From positions 4,300 to 68,299 of the forward strand of contig JBFLYM010000002.1 in the NCBI GenBank assembly GCA_040757035.1: a stretch of 64,000 nt of DNA. The letters run 5' to 3'. The notes under the pieces are model-generated. The model made no database searches. It was not told where the DNA came from and saw nothing but the letters and a program-made list of their open reading frames with translations. This DNA comes from Candidatus Micrarchaeota archaeon. Lineage in GTDB: Archaea > Micrarchaeota > Micrarchaeia > Anstonellales > Bilamarchaeaceae. Made by a program: the position numbers and the translations under genes. Shown in pieces: positions 3,261 to 63,822 of this stretch. The stretch's first letter is position 1, and each line of letters opens with the position of its first letter.

Positions 3261-3358
3261 ATATACTCAACCAACTAAGTTTTTCCGATTTTGTTTTTTA
3301 GGTTTTATCTCGATTGGTTGAGTATATGCGATCCACGTTTTTTTAGTGGATCGGTATA
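3261..3358. repeat. 98-bp nested-hairpin intergenic repeat, copy A (family R1)
   Basis: Near-identical (1 mismatch) to the reverse complement of 12794-12891 and highly similar to 51748-51845. Stem 1 is atactcaaccaa/ttggttgagtat. Stem 2 is cgatccac/gtggatcg around a T-rich loop. It supplies the C-terminal 27 codons and stop of the upstream decarboxylase ORF. Confidence 0.9.
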
Positions 3359-9787: not shown

Positions 9788-10085
9788 AATTTACATCTGT
9801 AATTCAATCATTCGTAACTTAATCATTCGTAATTAAGTTTGGTAATTAAGTTTGATCATTCGGTGATCACCCGGACAAACTAAAAATGATAGAAAACTTA
9901 ATATAACCTTACCTAAAAATATTTCGGCATTTGGCGAACTGCAACTAATCTTCCTTGAACTGCAGACCTAAATTTCCTTATCTTGAATCATACCGTTGGT
10001 GTGATGAGCTTAGATCGCATTCGCCGCATTTCGGCGCTCAGTAAAACGTAACATTTAAATATATTTTGTTACGTTATAATGTAAC

Positions 10086-11402: not shown

Positions 11403-12806
11403 TTATATCTTACTTTTCTTACTTTTGCCATGTTTTTTGTCATGTTTTTTCATCCATAAAATAAAATTTCCAAAGTCATGAGCCAATCCTTGGAATGGAT
11501 AAATCGTAACAATTTTTGCTATGAGTCTGCCAGTTGTTGCTTTTTTCAAAGGACGTACGATCTCTTTGGTGTTTGAAACAACGAAAAAACCAGTGATCAA
11601 TCTTGTCAATGCAATAATCAAAAAGAATATGTGAAAACTGAGAACGGCATTTCCCCCAAGAAACCCAAGAATCGCTCCGCCGAAAATTATTCCTGCAAAT
11701 GTTCCTGTACCACGAGAAAGAGAGAAATCTCCCATCGCGCTTACCCTTGAACGGACGGGTGTAATCTCGTAAAGGTAATTATATACCGTTGCGGATATAC
11801 CGCTCCAAATTATTCCGCTGTATGCTTCGGCAAGGAGAGATTGGACAAAATTGGAAACAAAAATCCAAGGCAATATCATTGTAAAGGAAAGCATACTTAC
11901 AGCGTTCAAGACCTTTTTAGTGCCGTATTTTTCTATCAATCTGCCCCAGTGTGGGGAAGCCAACGCGTAGCTTATTGTCCACAACGCTATTGTAAGTGAA
12001 AATTGGAAATAATCAAATTTAAGCATGTTGAACTTATATATTATTATGTACGGCGCAACCATATTGACTGAAAAGAAAACAAGAAAAATACAAACCAAAT
12101 ATTTCGTAAAATCGTTTCCGAGTTTGGATTTTGATTCTGCTTTTGGATTTGGGTCCCAATAAAGAGTAAGATAATAAGCACTAATGCTCCGAGTAACGAA
12201 TGCAATGAAAAAAAGCGTTCCGAAACCAAAGAATATGTTTGTTTTTGTGTAATCCAGAAAAATCCCTGCCAAAACAAGGGCAGCCAATCCTGCAAGATTC
12301 CACATTCTGTCCCTATAACCAAGCCAGCTCGCTCTTGTTTTTTCATGAACAACATCGCCTATAATTGCGAACCATGCTGGATTTACAACACCGCCAAAAA
12401 AATATATTGCAATTACAAGCAATATAAACGCAGTATTCGCAAAATCCTTAGAGAGTAAATTAAATTGGAACGCGAGCATCGCCACTCCGAACCATGTCAA
12501 AGCTTGTAGCGCAACTCCATAAATCAATATTTTTTTTCTTTCCCATCCAAAATCTGTGAAAAACGAGCCGATTTTCTGCGCAATGCCATCAAAAAGTGCA
12601 GGAAAAGAACCGAGCGCGGTTATGAAAAAAAGCGGAGCTTTGATTGCAATTGCAAACGGTGTCAGAAATACTGTGCCCGTATTCATCATTATTGCCCATA
12701 CTACTCCGTCTAGCGTGGAATAATGCATTGTTTTTTCTATTTTTTCTTTAACATTTTTTTCTTTAGCATTCATAATTATATCCTTGTCCAAATTATACCG
12801 ATCCAC
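11403..12806 (-). CDS. MFS transporter
   Basis: About 12 predicted TM helices and the GxxxDRxGRR-like loop (GYRDRMWN). Confidence 0.65.
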   Translation of the reverse strand: MDRYNLDKDIIMNAKEKNVKEKIEKTMHYSTLDGVVWAIMMNTGTVFLTPFAIAIKAPLFFITALGSFPALFDGIAQKIGSFFTDFGWERKKILIYGVALQALTWFGVAMLAFQFNLLSKDFANTAFILLVIAIYFFGGVVNPAWFAIIGDVVHEKTRASWLGYRDRMWNLAGLAALVLAGIFLDYTKTNIFFGFGTLFFIAFVTRSISAYYLTLYWDPNPKAESKSKLGNDFTKYLVCIFLVFFSVNMVAPYIIIYKFNMLKFDYFQFSLTIALWTISYALASPHWGRLIEKYGTKKVLNAVSMLSFTMILPWIFVSNFVQSLLAEAYSGIIWSGISATVYNYLYEITPVRSRVSAMGDFSLSRGTGTFAGIIFGGAILGFLGGNAVLSFHIFFLIIALTRLITGFFVVSNTKEIVRPLKKATTGRLIAKIVTIYPFQGLAHDFGNFILWMKKHDKKHGKSKKSKI

Positions 12807-12891
12807 TAAAAAAACGTGGATCGCATATACTCAACCAATCGAGATAAAACCTAAAAAACAAAACCGGAAAAACTTAGTTGGTTGAGTATAT
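12794..12891. repeat. 98-bp nested-hairpin repeat, copy B (family R1, opposite orientation to copy A)
   Basis: Reverse complement differs from 3261-3358 at one base. Confidence 0.9.
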
Positions 12892-12929
12892 CATCTGGAT
12901 AGTGTATTGGTGTACAAGCGCATCCAAAA

Positions 12930-21648: not shown

Positions 21649-22899
21649 TTATCTCGACATCCACTTCCAAGCTGGTTCAATTACTATTCTTTTCTTATCT
21701 ATTTCTAATTTATCTTCTTGATCGAGCGTTATTATTATTCCTTCTTTCAAATTGTATCTATCTAATGCTTCCAAAAGCCCGCCCAGCTCCCGATCTTTAT
21801 TCTCATCTCCAACCTTAAAACAAACCTGCACTGCGAAAATTATCTTGTTGGCATCTTTGACCAGGAAATCGCATTCGCGCTTGCCTTTAAAATAATAAAT
21901 ATTTCTATATTTTTTTCTGAGATGCACATAAACAAGGTTTTCCAATAGTCTTCCCTTATCTTCAGATAGCGAAGTTGAGTTTATTCTTGATAATCCGTTG
22001 TCTATGGAGTATAATTTTTTTGGATTTACTAATTGTTTTCTCATTGAATAATCAAATCGAGGAACCGTAAACGCAAGATAACTATCTTCAAAAAACGAAA
22101 TGAAAGAAATAACACTATTGACCGAACCCAGTTCGAATATTTTCTTAAGAGAATTGTAGCTAAATTCCTTTCCAAAATTTGATAGAATGTACAGTGCCAT
22201 TTCATTTAAGGTTTTCAAATTCCTTATTTTGTGCCTTATAGATATATCTCTTGCGACAATATCGCCCAGCAAATGCCTGAGAACCTCGGGGTTTCGTTCT
22301 TTTAGATATTCCGGAAAGCCGCCGTTCCTTAGGTATTCCTCAAACGAATCCACGTCCGGATTCTGTTTCGTAAATTCTAAAAATTCAATATAAGAGAAGG
22401 GGTATAATTCATAAGTTAAGTGTCTGCCTGTCAAACGCGTTCCCAATTCTTTGCTTAGTAATGAAGCGTTGGAACCAGTTATAACAACATATTTTTTCTT
22501 TTCCAGGAGAGATCTTATATAGAGTTCCCATTTGTCCACGCTCTGTATCTCATCAAAAAAATAACAATTCTGTTCCCCTAATTCTTCTTTAAAAGCCTCA
22601 TCCAATCGCTGGAAGTCATTCAGTCCGAAACCAAATGCACGTGGGTCGTCGAAGTCGAAATAATAAAACGACTGATATTTCTTCATTAATTGGCGCATTA
22701 GTGTACTCTTGCCGCATCGTCTTATCCCAGAGATAATTATCGCAAAATTGGTAATTACTGGCATCTCTTTTAATTTTTCCCGTTCTACTCCATAATCCCG
22801 TTGTTTGAACTCTTTATTTTGGGATCGTACAATTTCCTTTAGAACATCCTTTAATATCATGGATGTAGTTTCTACATCTCTCTTTATAAATGTTTTCAT
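21649..22899 (-). CDS. AAA+ ATPase, COG1373 type (AAA_14 + DUF4143), paralog 3
   Basis: GIRRCGKST and FFDEIQ motifs. C-terminal RECDFLVKD. Ends PAWKWMSR. Confidence 0.75.
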   Translation of the reverse strand: MKTFIKRDVETTSMILKDVLKEIVRSQNKEFKQRDYGVEREKLKEMPVITNFAIIISGIRRCGKSTLMRQLMKKYQSFYYFDFDDPRAFGFGLNDFQRLDEAFKEELGEQNCYFFDEIQSVDKWELYIRSLLEKKKYVVITGSNASLLSKELGTRLTGRHLTYELYPFSYIEFLEFTKQNPDVDSFEEYLRNGGFPEYLKERNPEVLRHLLGDIVARDISIRHKIRNLKTLNEMALYILSNFGKEFSYNSLKKIFELGSVNSVISFISFFEDSYLAFTVPRFDYSMRKQLVNPKKLYSIDNGLSRINSTSLSEDKGRLLENLVYVHLRKKYRNIYYFKGKRECDFLVKDANKIIFAVQVCFKVGDENKDRELGGLLEALDRYNLKEGIIITLDQEDKLEIDKKRIVIEPAWKWMSR

Positions 22900-22953
22900 T
22901 GATAGTGCACACTATTGCTCATTGGCAATGAAATGGTGCTTACTTAATAATAT

Positions 22954-22995
22954 TCTTTTCCGATGCGATTAACCGCGCATGCAAATATTCCATTT
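22954..22995. repeat. 42-bp intergenic copy of an internal segment of the CN-hydrolase gene
   Basis: Exact 42/42 identity with 24514-24555 (minus strand encodes NGIFACAVNRIGKE). Together the two copies flank the ATPase gene 23020-24102 in direct orientation. Confidence 0.9.
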
Positions 22996-23019: not shown

Positions 23020-24102
23020 CTACAAACCCTGATCGCGTCTCACAGCCGAAAACTTCAAGGCTTCTTTTATAATTGGGTCTCCGAGATTGTATTTTCCCCC
23101 TTTTTCTTCTATGAACCCATATTCCTGCAGCTGATCAAGAAGATTGGAAAGCCTGCTATCTGGAATTGGTTGACCTGATTTCGCTATGATAAAATTTTTT
23201 ATTTCGTTCCATGAAAGCGGCTCTTGGCTGAGAGACGCCAATATAAACAGATAGCGCTCCTTTGCCGCGATTCTCATGTTTAGGAACTCCTTAAGTTCAG
23301 CCGCTATAATCTTTGAGCTGTCTTTTAGTGTTTTTGAAAGAGCAACTTCATGGAACAATTCCTGCCTATAAAAACCATAATAAGTAAGCCAGCCAATCAC
23401 ACCGTCAAGCTTATCAACCGCTGTTTCAATTTCATTTTCTCGAATATTTATTTTCAACTGAGCAAAACCGGTCCTTAAAAACGTGATAGAATCCTTGCGT
23501 TCCAGCCTCCTTAAATTTATCACTTTTTTTGGCCGCCCATACAGTAGGCTCCCGATCTCGGAGCCTATAAACTTGTCCAATATGCCTATTTCGGAACCGG
23601 CAAGTATGATTTTTATTCTTTTTAGTCTATCGTAGATGAAAGCCAAGAAACGGTCAAATCCTGAGGGTTTTAGAAGCTGAACTTCGTCAATAAAAAGGCA
23701 GAAAAAATCATTTCTATCCTCCATCATCTTATCAATTCTTTTTGCCAACTCGCTCAGGCCCTTTTCTTCCCTAAAGCTTAATTTTACATAAATATCCAGG
23801 CCTTCAAGATAGGATTTCGCTTTCTCGTACATGCTTATACTTCTTAGAAAATCGTAAAATGTCCTTCCAATATGTTCATAAACTGCTTTCCTCCCCTTCG
23901 CAATTTCCCTAGAATCGATAAAAAGCTTTGGATGTTTGATTTCGCTGTAAACTACATTCATTAAACTAGTCTTGCCTGTTCTTCGCAATCCGCGCAACAC
24001 TATGAGCCGCTGCTGTTCGAGTACCCTTTCTATTTCCGCACATTCCTTATCGAAACCGAACAAATCTTTTCTGCTCGTCTTTGGTGTGATGTCAAAGTAC
24101 AT
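23020..24102 (-). CDS. archaeal ATPase (Arch_ATPase/COG1672-like, with C-terminal wHTH)
   Basis: LRGLRRTGKTSL Walker A and LFIDEVQ Walker B. Architecture differs from the COG1373 paralogs. Confidence 0.65.
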   Translation of the reverse strand: MYFDITPKTSRKDLFGFDKECAEIERVLEQQRLIVLRGLRRTGKTSLMNVVYSEIKHPKLFIDSREIAKGRKAVYEHIGRTFYDFLRSISMYEKAKSYLEGLDIYVKLSFREEKGLSELAKRIDKMMEDRNDFFCLFIDEVQLLKPSGFDRFLAFIYDRLKRIKIILAGSEIGILDKFIGSEIGSLLYGRPKKVINLRRLERKDSITFLRTGFAQLKINIRENEIETAVDKLDGVIGWLTYYGFYRQELFHEVALSKTLKDSSKIIAAELKEFLNMRIAAKERYLFILASLSQEPLSWNEIKNFIIAKSGQPIPDSRLSNLLDQLQEYGFIEEKGGKYNLGDPIIKEALKFSAVRRDQGL

Positions 24103-24317: not shown

Positions 24318-24337
24318 CTCGATTTAGCGGCTCAGTA
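24318..24337. repeat. 20-bp motif cgatttagcggctcagtaaa (right boundary of the two-ATPase block)
   Basis: See 21497-21516. Preceded by a local tandem gctaaatc x2. Confidence 0.7.
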
Positions 24338-25205
24338 AATGAGTATAACATTCAGATCTGCGATTATTGAGGAATTGCCAGCCGTTTCTTATTTTTTTAC
24401 ACATGGTTAAATCAACAACCGCAATAGAAGTGGTTTCGTTTCTACCAGCGCGCTTTATTATTTTGCCAAACGCATCGCATACGAACGAACCACCCCAAAA
24501 AGTTATTCTATCTTCTTTTCCGATGCGATTAACCGCGCATGCAAATATTCCATTTGCAATACAATGTCCGCGCATTACATTTTCCCACGCGCTTTTCCAA
24601 TTACCTTCGGTTTGTTTTATTCCTTTTATCGTACCTATTGCGGTGGGATAAAATATGATGTCCGCTTTCATAAGCGCGCTTATTCTTGCGGCTTCTGGAA
24701 ACCATTGGTCATAGCATATAAGTACGCCAATATTTCCATAATTTGTTTTGAACACTTTGAATTCTTCTCCGGGCGCAAAATAGTCCTTTTCCCAATAGCA
24801 TTCATCATATGGGATGTGAACTTTGCGGTATTTTCCTATTATGTTTCCGTTCTGGTCAAAAATTATAGAAGTGTTATATATTCTTTCGCCCGCTTTTTCG
24901 CATACCGAACCGCCTACGAGTATTATATTGTTATCACGCGCCGCTTTCGCAAGCGCATCTATAATTCTTTCAAAATTATCAGTGTATTCCGCGGTATATT
25001 TCGCGCGCTCATTTGTTTTTTTATATTGTGCGAAATATTTTGAAGCGAAAAGTTCAGGGAGACAAACAATGTTTGCGCCTTTTTTTGAGGCCATTGCGAT
25101 TTGTTTTACAGTACGCGCCAAATTTTCAGTAACGCTGTTGGACATACGCATTTGTATTAACCCTATCTTTGTCTTTCTTTTAGTTAACTCTAAGCGTTTG
25201 ATCAT
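24324..25205 (-). CDS. aguB: carbon-nitrogen hydrolase (N-carbamoylputrescine amidase-like)
   Basis: E-K-C triad context with PELF, RKVHIP and GVLICYDQWFPE. ORF opens at 25277 but the start is probably MIKRLELTK at 25205. Confidence 0.7.
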   Translation of the reverse strand: MIKRLELTKRKTKIGLIQMRMSNSVTENLARTVKQIAMASKKGANIVCLPELFASKYFAQYKKTNERAKYTAEYTDNFERIIDALAKAARDNNIILVGGSVCEKAGERIYNTSIIFDQNGNIIGKYRKVHIPYDECYWEKDYFAPGEEFKVFKTNYGNIGVLICYDQWFPEAARISALMKADIIFYPTAIGTIKGIKQTEGNWKSAWENVMRGHCIANGIFACAVNRIGKEDRITFWGGSFVCDAFGKIIKRAGRNETTSIAVVDLTMCKKIRNGWQFLNNRRSECYTHLLSR

Positions 25206-25380
25206 ACAAATCCGCATATTTTCTCTTAAGCTCCTCAAAAAATTATTTTCATAATAGTTTATAAGGCTTCCGCACATTCCCTTCCATTCCTTGCTGTAGT
25301 GAGCAACCCTATCCTCTTTTAAGATAGGATTATTTTTCTACTCCTTATCTGTTCTATAATGATTCTCAGTTTATCATTAC

Positions 25381-33782: not shown

Positions 33783-33788
33783 TCTAAT

Positions 33789-35213
33789 TTGCAAACGATC
33801 GGAAAAATTTGGTTGGTTGAGTATATGCCTGGAAAAATATTTGCAGTTGTTGGCAATCCAATACTCCATAGTAAAAGTCCAGAGATGTTCAATGCAGCAT
33901 TTAAGAAATTAAAGATAAACGCTATCTATATAAGAATTGCCGCATTTGATGCAGAAGAAGTGATGCGCACCGCAGATGATATTGGGCTATGTGGTTTAAA
34001 CATTACTTCGCCATTTAAGGAAGAATTAAAGAAAAAAATGCGCGTTTCGAATTCGTTAAACACACTCATAAATACAATCATTATAGATAAAAACGCAAGA
34101 GAAATCGATGCAATAAACTGTATAATTTGCAAAAATGATCCAAAATCAAAGTGTCCGAAGAAACAATTACTGGTTGGTTATAATACCGATGTTGCTGGCG
34201 TTATTGGTGCGCTCAAACATAATTCTTGCGATTTTGTTGGTAAAAAAATCATAGTGCTCGGTGCTGGAGGTGCGGCAAAGGCAGCGATATACGCACTTGT
34301 TTCTAAAAAAGCGGATGTAGTGGTGGTAAACCGCACATTCAAAAAGGCAAAAAAACTTGCGCAGCGATTTGGTTGCAGAGTCTCAAAATTTGATGAAATT
34401 GCGCAAGAACTCGAACATGCGAACATTCTAATCTCATGCGTTCCTACTGGCGAACGAATAATTCCAAAATCAGCGCTACGCAAAACGCTTAGTGTATTAG
34501 ATGCAAATTACTCAATAGATACAGCACTCAAAAAAGATGCAAAGAGCAATAATTGTAAAATAATTGATGGAAGAGAATGGTTACTTTTTCAGGCAATTCC
34601 GTGTTTTAAATATTTTATTGGTAAAAAAGCACCAGTCGCAGCGATGCGCAAAGTGCTTTACTCAAAAAAGAAAAGAAAAAAAAATATCGCTCTTATTGGT
34701 TTTATGGGTAGCGGAAAAACAGCGGTTGCTAAAGAACTCGCAACACTTAACGGAATGAAATCCGTAGATATAGACGCTAACATAGAAAAAAACATGAATA
34801 TGAAAATAGCGCAAATTTTTGAAGATATGGGAGAACGCGAATTTAGAAAAATAGAAAACGCGGAATTAAAAAAGGCGCTTGAATCCGAAAACGCAATAAT
34901 TTCCTGCGGAGGCGGGTTAGTGTTAGATCCGCGCAATGTAGACATGCTAAAAAGAGATTGCACTGTTTTTTGGTTATGGGCAGATATAACAACCATAATG
35001 GAAAGAATAAGTAAAGATGATTCAAGACCATTGATCAGAACTAAAAACAAAGGCGATCTCAAAACCAAAATCGAAATCGCCAAAAAAATATTAGAGCAGC
35101 GGTTATTTGTTTACGCAAACGCTTGCGATGCTCTAATAAATACAGTTGGAAAAAAACCAAAAGAAATTGCCGCAAGGATAGATTATGAAATTAACGAAAT
35201 TAATAAAGCCTAG
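33789..35213 (+). CDS. aroE: bifunctional shikimate dehydrogenase / P-loop shikimate kinase (AroE-AroK fusion)
   Basis: N-terminal AVVGNPILHSKSP with a Rossmann GAGGAAKA (AroE). C-terminal IALIGFMGSGKTAVAKELA...ISCGGG (bacterial-type shikimate kinase I). Probable start MPGKIF at 33825. Confidence 0.8.
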   Translation: MQTIGKIWLVEYMPGKIFAVVGNPILHSKSPEMFNAAFKKLKINAIYIRIAAFDAEEVMRTADDIGLCGLNITSPFKEELKKKMRVSNSLNTLINTIIIDKNAREIDAINCIICKNDPKSKCPKKQLLVGYNTDVAGVIGALKHNSCDFVGKKIIVLGAGGAAKAAIYALVSKKADVVVVNRTFKKAKKLAQRFGCRVSKFDEIAQELEHANILISCVPTGERIIPKSALRKTLSVLDANYSIDTALKKDAKSNNCKIIDGREWLLFQAIPCFKYFIGKKAPVAAMRKVLYSKKKRKKNIALIGFMGSGKTAVAKELATLNGMKSVDIDANIEKNMNMKIAQIFEDMGEREFRKIENAELKKALESENAIISCGGGLVLDPRNVDMLKRDCTVFWLWADITTIMERISKDDSRPLIRTKNKGDLKTKIEIAKKILEQRLFVYANACDALINTVGKKPKEIAARIDYEINEINKA

Positions 35214-45837: not shown

Positions 45838-46644
45838 TTAAACTTCATTTTTAATTATCGGTTTCGGAACAATAGTACCAAGTGATGAACGTATATCTTC
45901 AGTATGTGCTGTTTGTACGGCTTCTATATTAGCACGTATTATGGCCTCTATATCATCGTTATTCAATCCATTTTTCTTCATATCCCTAATCAATTCAACA
46001 AAATCCGCTGCATTCTCTTTTTTCTTTTCTTTGTTTTCCTCGCTTTCATTTGCAGTTATAATGTCTATAACTTTGGAATTATCTTTCTCTTCTATTATTT
46101 TATTTACTATATTATAAGCTTGATCGAGCATAGAAGGACTAAGCTTTTGAAGAAGATTTTGCATAATAATATTTTGCGTGTTTTTAATAATTCGATCAAC
46201 TTCCATTCTGATTCTATCGAATTCGCGTTCGTAGCCGTGGTCGATTGCGAAATCTTGCAGTTGCTTCATTGTACGAATATTATTCCAATTATCTAGGAGG
46301 GATTGTTGTTTTTCAGGGCTTGCTATTTTATAGATCCAACGCTTAGCAAGGTCAACCCCAATAGATTCGGAAATATCATTTATTACCTTGTCAGTTAATT
46401 TAATTGTTTTTAAATAAGAAACTAATTCTTTAGATACCTCGTCCTTTTCCTTTTTTGATAGTAGAGATATGCATAATTTATTATATAAATCTTTTATATT
46501 ATTTTTTTGATCATCGGTCAGAGTTTTTTCTTTCTGTATAATATTTATAATGTTTTCAACGTCACTCTTTACGCATTCCTGAGGAAATTGATCTTGAATC
46601 CGCTTCTTACTGTTATCAGCTCCAACGCTTATTAGACTGTTCAT
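45838..46644 (-). CDS. hypothetical protein
   Basis: 268 aa, helical and charged. Its 3'-proximal 85 bp (45971-46053) is duplicated at 47655-47739. Confidence 0.4.
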   Translation of the reverse strand: MNSLISVGADNSKKRIQDQFPQECVKSDVENIINIIQKEKTLTDDQKNNIKDLYNKLCISLLSKKEKDEVSKELVSYLKTIKLTDKVINDISESIGVDLAKRWIYKIASPEKQQSLLDNWNNIRTMKQLQDFAIDHGYEREFDRIRMEVDRIIKNTQNIIMQNLLQKLSPSMLDQAYNIVNKIIEEKDNSKVIDIITANESEENKEKKKENAADFVELIRDMKKNGLNNDDIEAIIRANIEAVQTAHTEDIRSSLGTIVPKPIIKNEV

Positions 46645-46695: not shown

Positions 46696-47634
46696 TTACT
46701 TCGTTAGTTTTGCTAGACACGTATTAGAACCTATAATTGGGAGAGCGTATTCAGAATTTTTAGATTGAGAAACGATAATTAGAACAAATTGCATAGAACT
46801 ATTGCAATCACGTTTTGCTAACTCATAATCTTGTTCATCACATACGATGATATATTTTGAATTATTTATATCTGTTATAATTACTTTTGGTAATTTTTTT
46901 ATAGGTAGGTAAGGGTCGCGAGTTCCATCTTCACATGTTCTTCCATCTAAATAAATTATTGTACCCTCAATTTTCTTCTCTTTGTAATTAGGTTGAAATA
47001 TCTCAATCATTTCAGGTGAAACAGCAACAGTGTACCATATAGGTCCAAGTTTAAATGCATAAAATTCACATTTCAGATTATCTTTACCATAAGTTGGAAA
47101 AACATTATAACCAAAATTCACGTGCGCCCACCCCTTAGGGACATAATATAACATAGGACACACAATCCGAGAAGGTAAGTTTAGAAACCAACCATTAGTC
47201 TTTTTAAAATCTACCTGCTGGCCCCTGGTTGCCTTAGGATCATAATTAAAGCGTTGTATATTTGGATTAAGTTTCATCTCTTTTTCAGCATTTTCTAGCT
47301 CTGAAAATGGAATTGTCTGTAGTTCTTTTGCACACGCAAGCGGAATTTTAAACATACCTAGAATTTTGTCAACTGGAGTCGTATTTGTTTTTTGATTTTG
47401 TGGTAGAACTTGCTCAATTCCAGGTTTTTTGTTGTTATCTAGGGGGTTTTTAGTTTGAGTATTATACAGTGCGGGTCCAGATAATGGACTTATTAAAGAT
47501 GCCACCAATAAGGAACTTGCTAACTTTTTTGCTATTTCTTTTTTTCTTTGTATTTTCGGAGGTGTAATCTTCTCCACTTTTTTTTCATGTCCTACCATAA
47601 TCTTATTTATGAGACAAAAAATATATAAAACCAT
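46696..47634 (-). CDS. secreted hypothetical protein
   Basis: Signal-peptide-like KKLASSLLVASLISPLSGPALY and several Cys in the mature part. Confidence 0.4.
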   Translation of the reverse strand: MVLYIFCLINKIMVGHEKKVEKITPPKIQRKKEIAKKLASSLLVASLISPLSGPALYNTQTKNPLDNNKKPGIEQVLPQNQKTNTTPVDKILGMFKIPLACAKELQTIPFSELENAEKEMKLNPNIQRFNYDPKATRGQQVDFKKTNGWFLNLPSRIVCPMLYYVPKGWAHVNFGYNVFPTYGKDNLKCEFYAFKLGPIWYTVAVSPEMIEIFQPNYKEKKIEGTIIYLDGRTCEDGTRDPYLPIKKLPKVIITDINNSKYIIVCDEQDYELAKRDCNSSMQFVLIIVSQSKNSEYALPIIGSNTCLAKLTK

Positions 47635-47739
47635 AGGTTCGTTCGTAACAGTTCGTTTTTCTTCATATCCTTAATCAATTCAACAAAATCCGCTGCATTC
47701 TCTTTTTTCTTTTCTTTGTTTTCGTCGCTTTCATTTGCA

Positions 47740-47787
47740 TTCTGGCAATTGTGGCATAGTAGCTGTTTGCCGGTATTTGCCAATATT
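47740..47787. repeat. 48-bp direct repeat, left copy, flanking the AlbA_2 gene
   Basis: ttctggcaattgtggcatagtagctgtttgccggtatttgccaatatt matches 49120-49168 with 3 mismatches. Internally palindromic (tggcaa/ttgcca, ggca/tgcc). Confidence 0.85.
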
Positions 47788-47815
47788 TAAAAATACTTAG
47801 TATTAAAAATATATC

Positions 47816-49120
47816 ATGAAGCTAACCGAATCTCAGCATGCTGAATTTAAGGAAAGTCTTGCTAATCTTGATGCTATTGTAATTAGTGTGGTAGCCTTTG
47901 CGAATAACGGTGGCGGTAAAATATATATTGGAATAAAGGATGATGGAACAATAAAGGGTATTGATGTCGGAAAAAATACAATTGAAAATCTGGCTGCTGT
48001 AATCACAAAAAATACTGAGACAGCAATACTGCCAAGGATTTATATTGAAGGAATTGAAAAAAAAATCATAATAGTCGTTGAAGTTGAAGAAAGCTCGGCC
48101 AAACCTCATTTTTATCGTAAAATTGCATATAAAAGGGTTGGAAAATCCAATATTCAAATGGACATTTTAGAAATAAAACAAATGATCTTAGATCAATCTG
48201 AACGTAGTTTTGATGAAAGCCTTTTTGAGTTTGATTTATCAGAAATTAATACCTCTGTTTTCAATCGGTTCCTGGAAAAATGTAAGCAGAGCGGTAGATT
48301 AAACGTCAAAGAAGATGCGAGTTTAGAAGATCATATTGAAAAGTTGGGCGCATTAAAAGAAAGAAAGGTAAAATTAGGATTTTTACTAATGTTTGCTCAA
48401 AACCCAACCCATTTTCTTCCTCATTTTGGGGTAAAACTTGCAAAAATATCTTCACAAACATTTTCAATTGGTTCGCTTGAACGCAGTATATTTTATACCG
48501 AATCAATATTCAGAGTGATAGATGAGATAGTATTTGAAATAGTCAAAGAACTACCTAAAAGAGTGTACTTAGATGGCTCCAAACGTATAGAAGAACCTAT
48601 AATTCCAACTTCAGCAATTAGAGAATTTGTAGCCAATGCTTTGGTTCATTGTGATTATAGGATTGCATCATCTATTTCGATTTTGCTTACCCCAACTTGT
48701 TTAGAAATATCCAACCCAGGCAGATTGATGGGTTTGAAAATCCAGGATCTTTACAAAAAACACCGCTCAATACTTCGTAATCCATTTCTTGCCAGATTAA
48801 TGTTCCTTTCAGGAGATATTGAAGAATGGGGATCTGGAATTGAAAATGCAAATATAGCTGTACTAAAATCTGGCCTAAGTTTGCCACAATTCAATGTTAA
48901 TTCTGGTTTTTTCAGCGTACGAATAAATTTTGGTACTTCTCAAATTTCTGCTTCGGATAAAATTATCAAAATGCTCAAAGCAGGTCCATTAAGTAGTAAA
49001 CAAATAGCCAAAAAACTAGATATTGCAGACCGAACCGTGAGGGCGGAATTAAAGAAACTTGTGGATTTGGAAGCAATAAAAAAACAGCGAAAAGGTCGCA
49101 AAATTACCTATAAAATTTGA
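47816..49120 (+). CDS. AlbA_2 (Schlafen-like) + HATPase_c_4 + C-terminal HTH protein (putative DNA-binding/regulatory ATP-binding protein)
   Basis: N-terminal ESQHAEFKESL...AFANNGGGKIYIGIKDDGTIKGIDVG matches the AlbA_2 domain signature. C-terminal KQIAKKLDIADRTVRAELKKL is an HTH. Confidence 0.65.
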   Translation: MKLTESQHAEFKESLANLDAIVISVVAFANNGGGKIYIGIKDDGTIKGIDVGKNTIENLAAVITKNTETAILPRIYIEGIEKKIIIVVEVEESSAKPHFYRKIAYKRVGKSNIQMDILEIKQMILDQSERSFDESLFEFDLSEINTSVFNRFLEKCKQSGRLNVKEDASLEDHIEKLGALKERKVKLGFLLMFAQNPTHFLPHFGVKLAKISSQTFSIGSLERSIFYTESIFRVIDEIVFEIVKELPKRVYLDGSKRIEEPIIPTSAIREFVANALVHCDYRIASSISILLTPTCLEISNPGRLMGLKIQDLYKKHRSILRNPFLARLMFLSGDIEEWGSGIENANIAVLKSGLSLPQFNVNSGFFSVRINFGTSQISASDKIIKMLKAGPLSSKQIAKKLDIADRTVRAELKKLVDLEAIKKQRKGRKITYKI

Positions 49121-49168
49121 TTCTGGCAATTGTGGCATAATAGTTGTTTGCCAGTATTTGCCAATATT
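49120..49168. repeat. 48-bp direct repeat, right copy
   Basis: See 47740-47787. Begins at the stop codon of the 47816-49120 gene. Confidence 0.85.
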
Positions 49169-51747: not shown

Positions 51748-51845
51748 TATACCGATCCACTAAAAAAACGTGGATCGCATATACGCAACCTGTCGAGATA
51801 AAACCTAAAAAACAAAACCGGAAAAACTTAGTGGGTTGCGTATAT
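51748..51845. repeat. 98-bp nested-hairpin repeat, copy C (family R1) with compensatory stem substitutions
   Basis: Same architecture as copies A and B, but the outer stem is acgcaacc/ggttgcgt instead of actcaacc/ggttgagt. A paired T>G / A>C change preserves the hairpin. Confidence 0.85.
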
Positions 51846-51928
51846 GATGAAATTGGATGATGAAATTAGTAGGACCGGTGGTTGGTTTAATAGTTGACTT
51901 GATGGCGAGATTAATGATGGGTTAATGG

Positions 51929-54031: not shown

Positions 54032-54101
54032 TATCCAATGCTTTTTTGATAAATCTCGAACGGAAAATTTTTCGTCGCGAAGAGAGATATGGAGAAAAAA
54101 T

Positions 54102-54153
54102 TTGTTCAGACTTACGACCATTTTCGACTATTTTTGGTCGGTTTTCTGAACAA
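54102..54153. repeat. 52-bp palindromic direct repeat, left copy, flanking ATPase paralog 5
   Basis: ttgttcagacttacgaccattttcgactatttttggtcggttttctgaacaa. Nested inverted repeats ttgttcaga/tctgaacaa and cgacca/tggtcg. Matches 55381-55432 with 1 mismatch. Confidence 0.9.
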
Positions 54154-55342
54154 AACCAAGAACAATAAGCGCATCGTCGTTCATGACAACTCCTTTCTTT
54201 CCTTCGAATTGAGAGGTTCCTTTGGAACTTCCACCTATTTCGAACAAAACAGTTTTCTCACCAATTTTAACTAGATAATCAGGAACTTTTCTCATTTTTT
54301 TAGGTATGAAAATTGGAAATCCGAGTTCGGAAATGTGAAAGACAAAATATTCTTCTCGCAGTGCACCCAATTCCGCTTCGCGCATGAGTTGGTCTGCAAA
54401 AGCCGAACGTAGATTCGGATGCGAAAAAATCAGTTTAACCGTTGCCTTTGCTTTTGCTTTCGGGGAGTCTTCTTCTATATATCTTATTATCCCCAATTCG
54501 TACAACATGCGTGCGGCCTCATAAACCGTTGATTTTGCATATCCGCTCATTAAGGAGAATGAAGTATAACTAAATTCTCCTGGTTTGGATGATGCCAAAA
54601 AAGAAAGAAGTCGTTCTGCAACATCAACCTTGTTTTCACTAAGGCTGAATTCTGCGAGTGCGTCTTCGTATATCATTTTTTTCATGAGTCGGAATATCGC
54701 ATCTTTTGCCGAAATTCCAGACGGAAATCCGCCTAAATTCAAGTATGTTCGATAATGTTTTTCAATATCCGGATGAGCCGCAAGCCAGTGTATTGTATTT
54801 TTTTTATCCACTGCTTCTTCTAAACTGGCAGAATAATCCGCACAATCCAAAATGTAAACAAATTCGCGGAAAGTTAGCGGGGACAGGGGCATTTCGATTG
54901 CCCGACGCCCTAACGTTATCGCGCCTTTTTTCAACGCAGCTGTAGAAGACCCAGAAACTACAATCGTCAAATCAAAATTATCACAAATATTTTTCAGTTC
55001 GTTTATCCATCTCACGTATTGATGAATTTCGTCTATGAATATTATCTTGTATCCGTTTCTGTATAAATGCTCTATAGTATTATAAAGACCTTCGGATTTG
55101 ATTAGCACAGAATCTGCTGAAAAATAAAAAGATTCTTTATATTCGTCGAACAATTGAATAAGAAGAGTGGTTTTTCCAATTCCTCGTATTCCAGGAACGA
55201 TTATTACTGGTTTCTTCATATTTTGCCCTTTGAATTCCTCAATAAGGCGTTTTAGTTTCGGATATAATAAGCGCTTCCTATAATCCTTTACAAGTAAGGT
55301 ATTTTCCACGGCTACTCGATAGAGTTTTTCTATTTCGATCAT
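54128..55342 (-). CDS. AAA+ ATPase (COG1373-like), paralog 5
   Basis: GIRGIGKTTLL Walker A and FIDEIHQ Walker B. Last 8 codons and stop lie inside the left 52-bp repeat. Confidence 0.7.
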   Translation of the reverse strand: MIEIEKLYRVAVENTLLVKDYRKRLLYPKLKRLIEEFKGQNMKKPVIIVPGIRGIGKTTLLIQLFDEYKESFYFSADSVLIKSEGLYNTIEHLYRNGYKIIFIDEIHQYVRWINELKNICDNFDLTIVVSGSSTAALKKGAITLGRRAIEMPLSPLTFREFVYILDCADYSASLEEAVDKKNTIHWLAAHPDIEKHYRTYLNLGGFPSGISAKDAIFRLMKKMIYEDALAEFSLSENKVDVAERLLSFLASSKPGEFSYTSFSLMSGYAKSTVYEAARMLYELGIIRYIEEDSPKAKAKATVKLIFSHPNLRSAFADQLMREAELGALREEYFVFHISELGFPIFIPKKMRKVPDYLVKIGEKTVLFEIGGSSKGTSQFEGKKGVVMNDDALIVLGFVQKTDQK

Positions 55343-55380
55343 ATCAAAATATATACCGTATTTATTTTTAATTCTTTCTT

Positions 55381-55432
55381 TTGTTCAGACTTACGACCAT
55401 TTTCGGCTATTTTTGGTCGGTTTTCTGAACAA
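55381..55432. repeat. 52-bp palindromic direct repeat, right copy
   Basis: See 54102-54153. Confidence 0.9.
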
Positions 55433-55468
55433 ATGATTAGCTTTTCCGTTCGCAATAGATAAAAAATC

Positions 55469-57944: not shown

Positions 57945-58021
57945 AAAAATCAATGAATCCGCAAATAAATAAAAAGCTTCGCATTTCCGGATCATTTATA
58001 GAATTTGCGAAATTTCGGTAA

Positions 58022-62777: not shown

Positions 62778-63126
62778 TCAAATTACTCCGCTAACCAAAT
62801 TTTTCCGATCGTTTGCGAATCTTCAATATCATTTCTTCACTATCATTGGTTTTATATAGAGGCGATCAGACATGTTGGGACATGTTGGCTCATAAATCCC
62901 AGAAAAAATTTAAAAATTTTCCTGTGCGAAAAATTTTCCTGTGCGCAAAGCGGAAAGATGCGCAAAATAATTGTAAAATAGCAGCTTTCGGCTAAGTTTA
63001 ATCCGAAATGCGAAGCTTTTTATTTATTTGCGGATTTATTCCCATTAGACGAATATAGACAAATACCCTTTTTCTAAAAAGAGTAAGATCAAGAAAAAAA
63101 AGAGTAAGACTAAAAATGATGAAAAA

Positions 63127-63822
63127 ATGGTCGGTCTTGATAAGGCGATAATCGCCGATATCACTATAAATGGCGATGTATTTGAAATTTATGTAGATCC
63201 AGAAATGGCGAATGCGTATAAGGAGGGTAGAAAACCAGATACAAAAAATATTCTTGTAGTTGAAGAAGTATATTCTGATGCAAAAAAAGCAGAGCGCGCG
63301 AAAAGCAATGCGCTCCAGAAAGCATTTGGTACTACAGACGTGATGAAAATTCTTGAAATAATCTTAAAGAAAGGAAATCTTCAATTAACCACAGAACAAA
63401 AAAGAAAAAAAAGCGAAGAAAAATATAAACAAATTGTAACTATCCTTATGCAAGAAACCATAGATCCAAGAACGAATGCCCCACATACTCAATCTAGAAT
63501 AGAAGAAGCTTTAGAAAAAGCGCAGATTCATATCGATCCGTTTAAAGATGCGAGAGATCAACTTCCAGATATTATTAAAGAGATAAGAGCGATAATTCCA
63601 CTTAAATTTGAAAAGCTCAAAATAGCCGTGAAAATACCTGTTGAATATGCGCGTCGTTCTTACGGTACGCTAAAAAGTTGGGGAATTCTTAAAGAACAAT
63701 GGATGGGCGACGGTTCACTTATTGTAGTTATAGAAATTCCGGCAGGTATACAAGGCGAGTTTTACAGTAAAATAAATAAAATGACTGCAGGAAATAACGA
63801 AACTAAGATTATAGAAAAATAA
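63127..63822 (+). CDS. sdo1: ribosome maturation protein SBDS (Sdo1)
   Basis: FYSH-domain N-terminus (DVFEIYVDPEMANAYKEG) and the three-domain length. Confidence 0.8.
   Translation: MVGLDKAIIADITINGDVFEIYVDPEMANAYKEGRKPDTKNILVVEEVYSDAKKAERAKSNALQKAFGTTDVMKILEIILKKGNLQLTTEQKRKKSEEKYKQIVTILMQETIDPRTNAPHTQSRIEEALEKAQIHIDPFKDARDQLPDIIKEIRAIIPLKFEKLKIAVKIPVEYARRSYGTLKSWGILKEQWMGDGSLIVVIEIPAGIQGEFYSKINKMTAGNNETKIIEK

What the first reader, a model, noticed from the sequence alone, without database searches (positions are those of the whole stretch)
54102..55432. AAA+ ATPase gene sitting in a cassette bounded by 52-bp palindromic direct repeats
The ATPase ORF 54128-55342 is flanked at 54102-54153 and 55381-55432 by a 52-bp sequence that is identical at 51/52 positions and in direct orientation. 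Each copy is a nested hairpin (ttgttcaga/tctgaacaa outer, cgacca/tggtcg inner). The gene's last codons and stop lie inside the left repeat. A single gene between imperfect-palindrome direct repeats is the geometry of a site-specifically mobilised gene cassette (attC-like), not of ordinary promoters or terminators. Integron-type cassettes are a bacterial concept, so an archaeal analogue would be unusual.
Basis: seen in the sequence. Interest (0 to 1): 0.75.

Follow-up and report, generated by a model that had tools for sequence, protein, structure and literature searches.

The report
Hairpin-bounded ATPase gene cassette in Micrarchaeota
A candidate antiviral ATPase-nuclease gene of a tiny DPANN archaeon sits between two nearly identical copies of a 54-base hairpin, and this gene-plus-hairpin unit recurs in many related archaea, where it can be cleanly absent leaving one hairpin, so it behaves like a previously undescribed excisable gene cassette rather than a bacterial-type integron cassette.

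Summary
A 54-nt nested hairpin (54101-54154, 55380-55433; 53/54 identical) brackets a 404-aa AAA_14 ATPase gene (54128-55342, minus strand). The gene's last 8 codons and stop lie in the left copy. The source is a Micrarchaeota MAG.

The anatomy is conserved: hairpin, TATA-like box, ORF ending in the hairpin loop. It recurs in at least 12 independent assemblies at about 60% protein identity. Three more distant subfamilies (33-39%) have it too, each with its own repeat. A covariance model links two of these repeat types to this one.

The two copies within a genome stay alike (mostly 0-1 differences of 54). Between genomes the median is 10. Homology between genomes stops at the hairpin bases.

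One near-identical genome pair shows a precise 1,263-bp absence that leaves a single repeat. A solo hairpin exists elsewhere. An unrelated Schlafen-like gene in this window has the same anatomy, also conserved in a relative.

It is not an integron cassette: the attC consensus and extrahelical bases are absent, no integrase is nearby, and the gene has its own promoter.

Best reading is an excisable, exchangeable single-gene module. The recombination agent is unknown. The main rival is a duplicated operator/terminator kept alike by gene conversion.

The parts
55380..55433 (-). Upstream copy of the 54-nt nested hairpin (gene orientation). It lies 35 nt after the stop of the PvlArgDC gene and 37 nt before the ATPase ATG. 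Its 3' arm abuts the TATA-like box.
   Evidence: covariance model R1 score 77.8 bits
55359..55371 (-). TATA-like box TTAAAAATAAATA, about 17-30 nt upstream of the ATG and preceded by a purine-rich AGAAAGAA stretch. This is the inferred archaeal promoter of a leaderless or short-leader mRNA.
   Evidence: Sequence. An A/T-rich TATA-like motif occupies the same place in relatives: TTTATAAATA, TTAATAAA, TTTAAAAAA. Promoter function is inferred from general knowledge of archaeal promoters and was not tested.
54128..55342 (-). 404-aa AAA_14 ATPase with a wHTH and a C-terminal DUF4143-like (PD-(D/E)XK-type) domain, of the PDC-S01 candidate defence family. The last 8 codons and the stop are encoded by the hairpin.
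54101..54154 (-). Downstream copy of the hairpin. Its 5' arm encodes FVQKTDQK, the TAG stop is in the loop, and a T6 run follows on the gene strand. It lies between the convergent ATPase and MarC genes.
   Evidence: R1 score 79.7 bits
47739..49168 (+). Second module of the same anatomy in the window. A 49-nt direct repeat (47739-47787 and 49120-49168, 94%) brackets a 434-aa Schlafen-AlbA_2/HATPase_c_4/HTH gene (47816-49120). One repeat lies 28 nt upstream of the ATG and the other starts at the stop codon. The unit is 1,381 nt.
   Evidence: A homologous repeat pair (82%, unit 1,379 nt) surrounds the 68%-identical gene in L067. The predicted hairpin is weak.

Best explanation
The region is one member of a conserved family of self-contained single-gene modules in Micrarchaeota/Anstonellales. 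Each module consists of a structured about 54-nt hairpin, a TATA-type promoter directly after it, and a PDC-S01-type ATPase-nuclease gene whose reading frame runs into a second, identical copy of the hairpin and stops in its loop. The two hairpin copies are the boundaries of the unit and act as its recombination sites. Exchange between them removes the about 1.27-kb unit, presumably as a circle carrying one hairpin, and leaves one hairpin in the chromosome. The reverse reaction, or replacement through the shared hairpins, puts a module into a site. Repeated rounds of this, or gene conversion, keep the two copies alike while the hairpin co-diverges with its gene. In place, the hairpin probably also serves the gene: the upstream copy abuts the promoter (operator or insulator position) and the downstream copy forms the 3' end. 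Shown: the anatomy, its conservation, the sameness of the two copies, the unit boundaries, one precise presence/absence polymorphism and one solo hairpin. Inferred: the circle, the reinsertion, the regulatory roles and the catalyst. The catalyst could be host recombination, a structure-specific enzyme acting in trans, or the encoded nuclease.
For: (1) The same anatomy occurs around every clade member with enough flank. Pairs of 40-70 nt with units of 1,264-1,288 nt were found in the window, L004/5/53, L008/12, L013/46, L020, L024, L051, L052, L054 and L057. (2) Three more distant subfamilies have their own bracketing repeats: 36% (L008 8494-8546 and 9757-9809, unit 1,263), 39% (L061/62, 61 nt, 100%, unit 1,332) and 33% (L058-60, unit 1,242). 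A covariance model built from type-A hairpins hits the type-B and P0050-type repeats over its full length (nhmmer). (3) Within-genome copies differ at 0-1 of 54 positions in most genomes, against a between-genome median of 10. L004 and L005 differ by one base that is changed in both copies. (4) Nucleotide homology between loci begins and ends within about 5 nt of the hairpin bases, and the flanks are unrelated in most pairs. (5) L057 shares flank genes with L013 (88% and 79% aa), but its ATPase is 71% identical to L013's and 81% identical to that of L008, which shares no flank genes. (6) Empty site: L009 has the flanks of L008 at 99.65% identity with exactly one repeat B and no module. (7) A solo type-A hairpin lies between convergent genes in L015/L048 with no ATPase within 8 kb. 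(8) The hairpin is 82% conserved where the protein is about 60% identical. It encodes a low-confidence C-terminal tail that distant relatives lack, since they end at ...FGFLY. This points to constraint on the nucleic acid. (9) Unit-length contigs with k-1 self-overlap exist: L010 is 1,264+30 nt.
Against: There is no direct evidence of a circle, of an insertion event, or of more than one type-A module per genome. Only one empty site was found. It is for the paralogous module B, not for this locus, and its left flank is only 58 nt because the contig ends there. Loss between 50-nt direct repeats needs no dedicated machinery. Related genomes L004 and L051 keep the module at the same place with module identity about equal to flank identity (79% and 81%), so movement is not frequent. 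No recombinase is encoded in the module or in the window. Solo hairpins are rare: one in two whole-collection scans. No target-site duplication is visible outside the hairpins. Unit-length contigs are also what a de Bruijn assembler produces at chromosomal direct repeats. Covariation support for the hairpin is only moderate: 6 pairs with double changes, and 18/500 shuffles reach the observed score.
Confidence: 0.55

Rival explanations
1. The repeats are a purely cis-regulatory duplication. The hairpin is the binding site of the encoded wHTH protein (an operator overlapping the BRE/TATA region) and/or a terminator-insulator, used at both ends of the gene, possibly for looping. The two copies are kept alike by intrachromosomal gene conversion. 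The gene is inherited vertically, contexts differ because DPANN genomes rearrange quickly, and the L009 deletion and the L015 solo are incidental repeat-mediated losses.
For: The upstream copy ends directly at the TATA-like box in all members. Both protein families that carry such repeats have HTH or wHTH domains. The hairpin sequence is conserved beyond what structure alone requires. L004 and L051 keep the module in place with flank-like divergence. Synteny decays quickly anyway: relatives with 86-88% identical PvlArgDC already have a different neighbourhood. A T-run follows the downstream copy in the window.
Against: Selection for a binding site does not explain identity at positions that vary freely between genomes (loop and internal loops). 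Nor does it explain why homology between genomes stops exactly at the hairpin bases. The incongruence of L057 with L013 and L008 needs exchange. Direct repeats around a useful gene are a deletion liability, yet they persist in four ATPase subfamilies and an unrelated family. The T-run after the downstream copy is not conserved. Bacterial homologues and the other three DUF4143 genes in this window function without such repeats.
Confidence: 0.3
2. It is an integron-type gene cassette or a CALIN (cluster of attC sites lacking an integrase). The hairpins would be attC sites recombined as folded single strands by an integron integrase encoded elsewhere.
For: Two structured imperfect palindromes lie less than 4 kb apart around one ORF. 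The nested stem / internal loop / stem / loop geometry recalls R box, spacer, L box and variable loop. Hairpin sequence varies between subfamilies while the shape is kept. Integrons and CALINs exist in Archaea (PMC9668308).
Against: The R'' RYYYAAC ... R' GTTRRRY arrangement is absent; here GTT is in the 5' arm and AAC in the 3' arm. The internal loop is symmetric with no extrahelical bases, so nothing marks one strand. The cassette carries its own promoter and the ORF overlaps the site. The two sites are identical rather than cassette-specific. There are never arrays of more than one ORF per pair. No IntI or any tyrosine recombinase is in the window.
Confidence: 0.03
3. It is a Xer/dif-dependent module, like an IMEX element or the pdif modules of Acinetobacter plasmids. 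The hairpin would be a dif-like site recombined by host XerA.
For: It is a small recombinase-less unit between imperfect palindromes. A solo copy lies between convergent genes in another genome. There is usually one module of a given type per contig.
Against: The site does not have the 11-6-11 dif layout: arms are 10 and 7 bp and the central region is 14 nt. Two different hairpin types flank two modules head to head in one genome (L008), which a single chromosomal dif cannot explain. The ORF ends inside the site in two subfamilies.
Confidence: 0.05
4. The hairpins are the ends of a single-strand (IS200/IS605-like, PATE-like) or REP/RAYT-like element, mobilised in trans by a Y1 HUH transposase. 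The ATPase would be cargo.
For: IS200/IS605 ends carry similar subterminal hairpins in the same orientation. REP sequences flank and co-evolve with their RAYT gene. This comparison rests on general knowledge.
Against: No TnpA, TnpB or RAYT gene is in the module or the window. Peel-and-paste excision takes both hairpins and leaves none, whereas the empty site keeps one. The hairpins are not dispersed in the window or the collections. The two ends are identical over the whole hairpin, with no distinct left and right guide sequences.
Confidence: 0.04
5. It is a chance repeat or an assembly artefact.
For: None beyond the fact that the source is a MAG.
Against: There were 0 matches in 100 shuffles. 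The same structure appears in an independent Logan assembly of the same organism (L001) and in more than 12 assemblies from NCBI, JGI, ENA and Logan.
Confidence: 0.01

Closest known systems
Integron gene cassettes / CALINs (attC sites), including the archaeal ones of Ghaly et al. 2022 (PMC9668308)
   Same: A single ORF is delimited by structured imperfect palindromes. The shape of the site is more conserved than its sequence across subfamilies. Precise loss of the unit leaves one site. The units are found in variable genomic contexts.
   Different: There is no R''/R' consensus, no extrahelical bases and no integrase nearby. The gene has its own promoter. The ORF stop lies inside the site. The two sites of a unit are identical and co-diverge with the gene. 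There are no multi-cassette arrays.
pdif modules of Acinetobacter plasmids and IMEX elements (Xer-dependent units); comparison from general knowledge
   Same: Small units without a recombinase, often one gene, lie between short imperfect palindromes and are found in different contexts.
   Different: The site layout is not 11-6-11. The sites are in direct orientation and 54 nt long. Two unrelated site types occur side by side in one genome. These are archaeal chromosomes rather than plasmids.
REP/REPIN-RAYT systems (REPtrons); comparison from general knowledge
   Same: A single-copy gene is flanked by its own cognate palindromic repeats, which co-evolve with the gene clade.
   Different: The flanked gene is an AAA+ ATPase with a PD-(D/E)XK-like domain, not a Y1 transposase. 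The repeats are direct rather than inverted. There is no genome-wide population of repeats.
PDC-S01 / COG1373 (AAA_14 + DUF4143) candidate defence ATPase-nucleases
   Same: The protein belongs here: PADLOC PDC-S01 E 2.7e-24, Walker motifs, and a conserved acidic/lysine set in the C-terminal domain. The family is described as an ATPase fused to a PD-(D/E)XK domain and as very abundant in Archaea (PMC12988326).
   Different: The papers found that mention DUF4143, COG1373 or PDC-S01 gave no indication of flanking hairpin repeats; only two were read, at the passages holding the search terms. Bacterial plasmid homologues and the three other DUF4143 genes in this window lack such repeats. This clade has a hairpin-encoded C-terminal tail.

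Membership tests
Integron gene cassette (attC) | Conserved R'' (RYYYAAC) at the 5' end and R' (GTTRRRY) at the 3' end of the site | tested here: not met
   The hairpin reads TTTGTTCAGA...TCTGAACAAA on both strands, so GTT is in the 5' arm and AAC in the 3' arm. GTTCAGA does not fit GTTRRRY. The consensus itself is from general knowledge.
Integron gene cassette (attC) | Extrahelical bases and asymmetry that mark the recombinogenic bottom strand | tested here: not met
   Both strands fold to the same symmetric structure with 4+4-nt internal loops and no bulged bases.
Integron gene cassette (attC) | Integron integrase (IntI) adjacent, or at least two attC sites less than 4 kb apart (CALIN) | tested here: inconclusive
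   Two sites lie 1.28 kb apart, so the spacing criterion is met. No tyrosine recombinase is found in any window ORF of 150 aa or more. The rest of the genome could not be examined.
Integron gene cassette (attC) | Promoterless ORF expressed from Pc, with the site downstream of and separate from the ORF | tested here: not met
   A TATA-like box lies between the upstream hairpin and the ATG in all members, and the ORF ends inside the site. Promoter activity itself was not tested.
PDC-S01 / COG1373 ATPase-nuclease | AAA_14-type P-loop ATPase with Walker A/B, sensor and arginine residues | tested here: met
PDC-S01 / COG1373 ATPase-nuclease | Match to the family's defence-system profile | tested here: met
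   PADLOC PDC-S01 models, best E 2.7e-24 over residues 33-363.
PDC-S01 / COG1373 ATPase-nuclease | C-terminal DUF4143 (PD-(D/E)XK clan) domain | tested here: inconclusive
   PF13635 is not reported for this protein at E<0.01. Homologues at 33-39% identity carry it and align end to end. E330, D355, E368 and K374 are invariant and lie on an alpha-beta-beta-beta-alpha-beta segment. A domain-only model failed (pLDDT 39).
PDC-S01 / COG1373 ATPase-nuclease | Antiviral defence activity | not testable with these tools
   The family is only a candidate and is experimentally unvalidated (PMC12988326).
IS200/IS605-type or PATE element | Y1 HUH transposase (or TnpB) and seamless excision that removes both subterminal hairpins | tested here: not met
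   There is no such gene in the module or window. The empty site retains one hairpin.
Xer/dif-dependent module (IMEX, pdif) | 28-nt site with two about 11-bp arms around a 6-8-bp central region, and one chromosomal dif | tested here: not met
   Arms are 10 and 7 bp and the central region is 14 nt. Two different site types are adjacent in L008.
REP/RAYT (REPtron) | RAYT gene flanked by inverted REPs, plus many dispersed REP copies | tested here: not met
   The flanked gene is an AAA+ ATPase and the repeats are direct. There are only 2 copies in 64 kb and one solo in the whole-collection scans.
Intrinsic-type terminator | GC-rich stem followed by a T run at the 3' end of the gene, conserved among relatives | tested here: inconclusive
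   A T6 run follows the downstream copy in the window but not in L004, L008 or L057. The consensus scan found 2 sites on the opposite strand against 2.1 expected. The scan is not designed for archaea.

The most novel reading that the evidence does not exclude
The module is a minimal, autonomous mobile element. Its single protein (AAA+ ATPase, wHTH, PD-(D/E)XK-like nuclease) would recognise its own cognate hairpin, extruded as a cruciform or folded in single-stranded DNA, and cut at the base of the stems. This would excise or copy the about 1.27-kb unit. Because resolving a cruciform and unfolding the two hairpin ends regenerates a full palindrome at each end, every insertion would be born with two identical direct copies. 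That would explain the exact hairpin-base boundaries and the sameness of the copies. It would make part of the very abundant PDC-S01 'defence' family a new class of selfish, single-gene, hairpin-bounded elements. The Schlafen-like module would be a second, analogous class.
Probability: 0.12. Interest if true: 0.9.

Novelty: new variant of a known kind. Interest (0 to 1): 0.7.

Why it matters
PDC-S01 ATPase-nucleases are among the most common candidate defence genes of prokaryotes and are especially abundant in Archaea, including DPANN lineages that have few other systems (PMC12988326). Nothing is known about how they work or spread. This study shows that a whole archaeal clade of them comes packaged in a fixed, hairpin-bounded unit. 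The ends of that unit are kept identical, and the unit can be cleanly absent. That gives a concrete, testable handle. The hairpin is a candidate DNA ligand or substrate of the protein, and the unit is a candidate new type of archaeal gene cassette that needs no integron. If the unit moves by itself or through a structure-specific host activity, it would add a new mechanism of gene flow in the poorly understood DPANN archaea. It would also provide a compact 1.3-kb portable expression unit. If it is only regulatory, it is still an unusual conserved design: the stop codon lies in the loop of a hairpin that is duplicated at the gene's own promoter.

Tried and rejected
- **Empty site for this locus.** Relatives with 86-88% identical PvlArgDC (L026-L031) have PvlArgDC, a hypothetical gene, a DHH gene and then MarC, a different upstream region and no hairpin. 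They are uninformative.
- **Source genome census.** The source genome is not among the GTDB representatives scanned, so the hairpin could not be counted genome-wide.
- **Viral contigs (IMG/VR).** No copy of the hairpin pattern was found. The phage collection holds only a weak partial protein hit.
- **Bacterial plasmid homologues.** At about 26% identity they have no bracketing repeats, so the architecture is not a general property of COG1373.
- **Other DUF4143 genes.** The three others in the window, and the 25% paralogue in L013, have no bracketing repeats.
- **Rfam.** Nothing at gathering threshold in the window, and only sub-threshold snoRNA noise in the region.
- **L061 versus L062.** Their apparent different contexts are a downstream inversion unrelated to the repeat.
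- **L012 232-nt repeat.** It is the shared 5' part of two paralogous membrane-protein genes, not a module.
- **L015 solo site.** It shares no genes with any occupied locus in hand.
- **Target-site duplications.** None is seen outside the hairpins.
- **CRISPR, BHB-intron and rolling-circle origin readings.** Considered and dropped. There is no array, no bulge-helix-bulge geometry, no Rep gene and no conserved loop nonamer.
Full report
**1. The observation**

A 54-nt direct repeat lies at 54101-54154 and 55380-55433 (53/54 identical, 1,279 nt start to start). Either strand of either copy folds into the same nested hairpin: 10-bp outer stem, 4-nt internal loops, 6-bp inner stem, 14-nt loop. As DNA the energy is -12.7 to -13.3 kcal/mol, z -3.4 to -7.9; RNA folding gives the same structure.

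The ORF 54128-55342 on the minus strand encodes a 404-aa AAA_14 ATPase. Its last eight codons (FVQKTDQK) and the TAG stop are part of the left repeat, with the stop in the loop.

In gene orientation the order is:
- PvlArgDC stop, then 35 nt
- hairpin
- 37 nt with a TATA-like box (TTAAAAATAAATA)
- ATG and the ORF, which ends inside the second hairpin
- convergent MarC gene

The neighbours are archaeal housekeeping genes: ribosomal P1, L10 and L1, ELP3 and a class II aminoacyl-tRNA synthetase. An NCBI record names the identical protein as from a Candidatus Micrarchaeota MAG. An independent Logan assembly of the same organism contains the same structure (L001).

**2. The anatomy is conserved in relatives**

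The ATPase has about 47 relatives at 51-63% identity, all about 400 aa, from Micrarchaeota/Anstonellales. Wherever enough flanking DNA was available, the gene is bracketed by a direct repeat of a homologous hairpin, and a TATA-like motif lies between the upstream copy and the ATG.

| Locus | Repeat length (nt) | Mismatches | Unit (nt) |
|---|---|---|---|
| window | 54 | 1 | 1,279 |
| L004/L005/L053 | 62 | 1 | 1,268 |
| L008/L012 | 52 | 0 | 1,264 |
| L013/L046 | 55 | 1 | 1,268 |
| L020 | 70 | 0 | 1,285 |
| L051 | 51 | 0 | 1,268 |
| L057 | 53 | 0 | 1,265 |
| L054 | 54 | 3 | 1,265 |
| L052 | 52 | 3 | 1,275 |
| L024 | 40+ | 5 | 1,288 |

A degenerate pattern covering all variants was scanned over the GTDB representative genomes and the JGI metagenomes. 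It found genuine hairpins only in such archaea, and only as pairs around this gene, apart from one solo copy.

The C-terminal tail ...LGFVQKTDQK is shared by the clade. Distant relatives end at ...FGFLY, and the tail is of low confidence in the structure model. The hairpin is 82% conserved in sequence where the proteins are about 60% identical. The constraint is therefore on the nucleic acid, and the tail is a by-product of the frame running into the hairpin.

Covariation gives moderate support for pairing: 86% of cells are paired against 23-46% for slid controls, and six pairs have changes on both sides.

**3. The anatomy extends to paralogous subfamilies and to a second protein family**

In L008 and L012 a 36%-identical paralogue lies head to head with the type-A module. 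It has its own 50-53-nt direct repeat of different sequence (8494-8546 and 9757-9809, unit 1,263). Again the stop codon is in the hairpin loop, and again the upstream copy lies about 27 nt before the ATG.

A 39% homologue (L061/L062) has a 61-nt perfect repeat (unit 1,332) containing CGACCAAAAATAAGCAAAATTGGTCG, visibly related to the inner stem here. A 33% homologue (L058-L060) has a 54-78-nt repeat (unit 1,242). A covariance model built only from type-A hairpins hits the type-B and P0050-type repeats over its full length (E about 0.005 and 2e-4; nhmmer). Those three repeat types therefore form one diverging structured family that tracks its gene.

The architecture is not universal. Bacterial plasmid homologues (about 26%) lack it, as do three other AAA_14+DUF4143 genes in this same window.

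An unrelated gene in the window has the same layout. It is a 434-aa Schlafen-AlbA_2/HATPase_c_4/HTH protein (47816-49120) with a 49-nt direct repeat 28 nt before the ATG and again starting at the stop codon (unit 1,381). Its 68% homologue in another MAG (L067) is bracketed by a homologous repeat pair with a unit of 1,379. A scan of all Micrarchaeota loci in hand for gene-bracketing repeats found essentially only these two families.

**4. The two copies are kept alike, and the unit has sharp edges**

On the alignment, the two copies in one genome differ at 0-1 of 54 positions in most genomes (3, 5 and 9 in L054, L052 and L024). Copies from different genomes differ at a median of 10 positions, range 2-19. 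L004 and L005 differ by one base that is changed in both copies. Positions that vary freely between genomes, such as the loop centre and internal loops, are thus the same within a genome. Selection for a binding site alone would not produce this.

In all-against-all blastn of ten type-A loci, homology starts and stops within about 5 nt of the outer bases of the hairpins. Most flanks are unrelated.

Two qualifications apply:
- L004 and L051 are syntenic, with module identity (79%) about equal to flank identity (81%), so the module can stay in place for long periods.
- L013 and L057 share flank genes (88% and 79% aa) around a variable stretch. Yet the ATPase of L057 is 71% identical to that of L013 and 81% identical to that of L008, which shares no flank genes. 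This is incongruent with simple vertical descent.

**5. Presence/absence**

L009 (GCA_038849995.1) and L008 (GCA_038885195.1) are 99.65% identical over 1.7 kb. L009 goes from the left flank of module B (58 nt, identical) through exactly one copy of repeat B into the right flank and module A. The 1,263-nt unit is missing. The caveat is that the left flank is short because the contig ends there. The two repeat copies share at most about 29 identical bases in a row, which makes an assembler mis-join unlikely but not impossible.

A solo type-A hairpin lies between two convergent genes in L015/L048, with no ATPase within 8 kb.

Several relatives of both the ATPase and the Schlafen-like protein sit on contigs of unit length. 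L010 is exactly one unit plus a 30-nt (k-1) self-overlap. This fits circles or multiple contexts, but it is also what direct repeats do to a de Bruijn graph, so I give it little weight.

No clean empty site could be obtained for the window's own locus.

**6. The protein**

The AlphaFold2 model is confident (pLDDT 89). Its first 250 residues or so match the archaeal Walker-type ATPases 2qen and 2fna, STAND NTPases (CED-4, NLRs) and Cdc6/Orc1, that is, an AAA+ domain plus a winged helix.

The C-terminal 80 residues form an alpha-beta-beta-beta-alpha-beta segment carrying the family-invariant E330, D355, E368 and K374. Relatives at 33-39% identity are scored as DUF4143, a PD-(D/E)XK-clan domain (PMC3424549).

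The protein matches PADLOC's PDC-S01. That family is an unvalidated single-gene defence candidate, described as an ATPase fused to a PD-(D/E)XK domain and as very abundant in Archaea (PMC12988326). The papers found that mention DUF4143, COG1373, AAA_14 or PDC-S01 gave no indication of flanking repeats; only two of them were read, at the passages holding the search terms.

**7. What it most likely is**

The best-supported reading is a discrete, self-contained single-gene module whose two hairpin copies are its boundaries and recombination sites. Exchange between them removes the unit and leaves one hairpin; this is shown once, and the solo copy fits it. Reinsertion or replacement through the hairpins, or gene conversion, keeps the copies alike and lets modules move between genomes; this is inferred from the sharp edges, the sameness of the copies and the incongruence.

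In a circular or tandem form, one hairpin would sit at once at the end of the ORF and in front of the promoter. A linear insertion that keeps both functions needs the hairpin at both ends. This may be why only this geometry is seen.

The agent is unknown. A second, unrelated protein family with the same layout speaks for a general or trans-acting process, or for analogous self-acting proteins. The co-divergence of hairpin and gene, and the nuclease-like domain, keep the encoded protein in play.

The main rival is a duplicated operator/terminator homogenised by gene conversion, with incidental deletions. It explains the position at the promoter and the HTH domains. It does not readily explain the identity at free positions, the sharp edges, the incongruence, or the persistence of a deletion-prone layout.

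**8. Comparison with known systems**

It works most like a site-delimited gene cassette (integron cassettes, pdif modules), but it fails the defining features of each:
- **attC:** no R''/R' consensus, no extrahelical bases, own promoter, ORF overlapping the site, and no integrase in the window.
- **dif-like site:** not an 11-6-11 site, and two site types occur side by side.
- **IS200/IS605-like or REP/RAYT-like element:** no Y1 transposase, one hairpin stays behind on loss, and there are no dispersed copies.

This unit is nevertheless not one of them.

I rate it a new variant of a known kind (gene cassettes bounded by structured repeats), carried by a known but uncharacterised protein family. 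The probability that it is a new self-mobilising element is small but not negligible.

**9. Verdict**

Interest is 0.7. The pattern is robust, conserved and apparently undescribed, and it gives a concrete handle on a very common candidate defence family in DPANN archaea. The mechanism remains unproven.

Noticed in passing
window 47739-49168: A Schlafen-AlbA_2/HATPase_c_4/HTH gene (47816-49120) is bracketed by a 49-nt direct repeat (94%, unit 1,381 nt) with the same repeat-promoter-ORF-repeat layout. A homologous repeat pair surrounds its 68% homologue in L067 (3925-3973 and 5304-5352). Several relatives sit on contigs of 1,368-1,427 bp.
   Followed up: partly
window 22950-22995 and 24510-24555: A 46-nt direct repeat (98%, unit 1,560 nt). 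One copy is inside the CN-hydrolase ORF 24324-25277 and encodes NGIFACAVNRIGKE. The other is a stray fragment on the far side of an ATPase_2/AAA_14 + MCM_C-wHTH gene (23020-24102). It looks like an att-type duplication from insertion of a 1.5-kb unit into the 3' part of the hydrolase gene.
   Followed up: partly
window 3261-3359, 12793-12894, 51748-51848 (partial copies at 33787-33826 and 62784-62820): An about 98-nt repeat family (94-99% identical). It has an 8-bp hairpin (CGATCCAC/GTGGATCG) and a 14-bp long-range stem (ATATACTCAACCAA/TTGGTTGAGTATAT), with compensatory changes in the third copy. There is no Rfam match. It could be a MITE-like element or an unannotated small RNA.
   Followed up: partly
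window 4704-5966, 10086-11381, 21649-22899, 23020-24102, 54128-55342: Five AAA_14/ATPase_2-type 'archaeal ATPase' genes lie in 64 kb of a small DPANN genome. Three have clear DUF4143 domains and no bracketing repeats.
   Followed up: partly
window 45964-46054 and 47649-47739: A 91-nt direct repeat (95%, unit 1,685 nt) that reads as coding on the minus strand (...DFVELIRDMKKNGL). It lies inside ORF 45838-46644 and just upstream of ORF 46696-47634, neither of which has a Pfam match. The second copy abuts the Schlafen-gene repeat. L067 has a comparable 146-nt pair with a unit of 1,689 nt.
   Followed up: no
window 57952-57987 and 63005-63040: A 36-nt inverted repeat (97%). One arm is at the 5' end of the ribosomal protein L1 gene and the other lies about 90 nt upstream of the SBDS gene (63127-63822). 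It may be a shared regulatory RNA or DNA site, since archaeal L1 operons are known to be autoregulated through an mRNA mimic of the rRNA site.
   Followed up: no
window 1-64000: There is no tRNA gene (ARAGORN) and no Rfam family at gathering threshold in the entire 64 kb.
   Followed up: yes
L012 5088-5319 and 7021-7252: A 232-nt direct repeat (99%, unit 1,933 nt) consisting of the promoter plus the first 53 codons of two paralogous membrane-protein genes, with a RelE-like 92-aa ORF between them. The near-identical genome L008 has only one copy, so this is another presence/absence difference next to the ATPase modules.
   Followed up: partly
L008 8494-11157 (also L012 2325-4987): Two ATPase modules of different subfamilies (36% identical), each with its own hairpin type, sit head to head about 30 nt apart. 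L067 likewise clusters a DUF4143 ATPase, an ATPase_2/DUF234 ATPase and the Schlafen-like module. These genes gather in small variable islands.
   Followed up: partly
L061 4420-5577 versus L062 2453-3263: Two JGI contigs with the identical P0050 module differ by an inversion starting about 130 nt downstream of the module's right repeat. It was not examined further and may be an assembly or strain difference.
   Followed up: no
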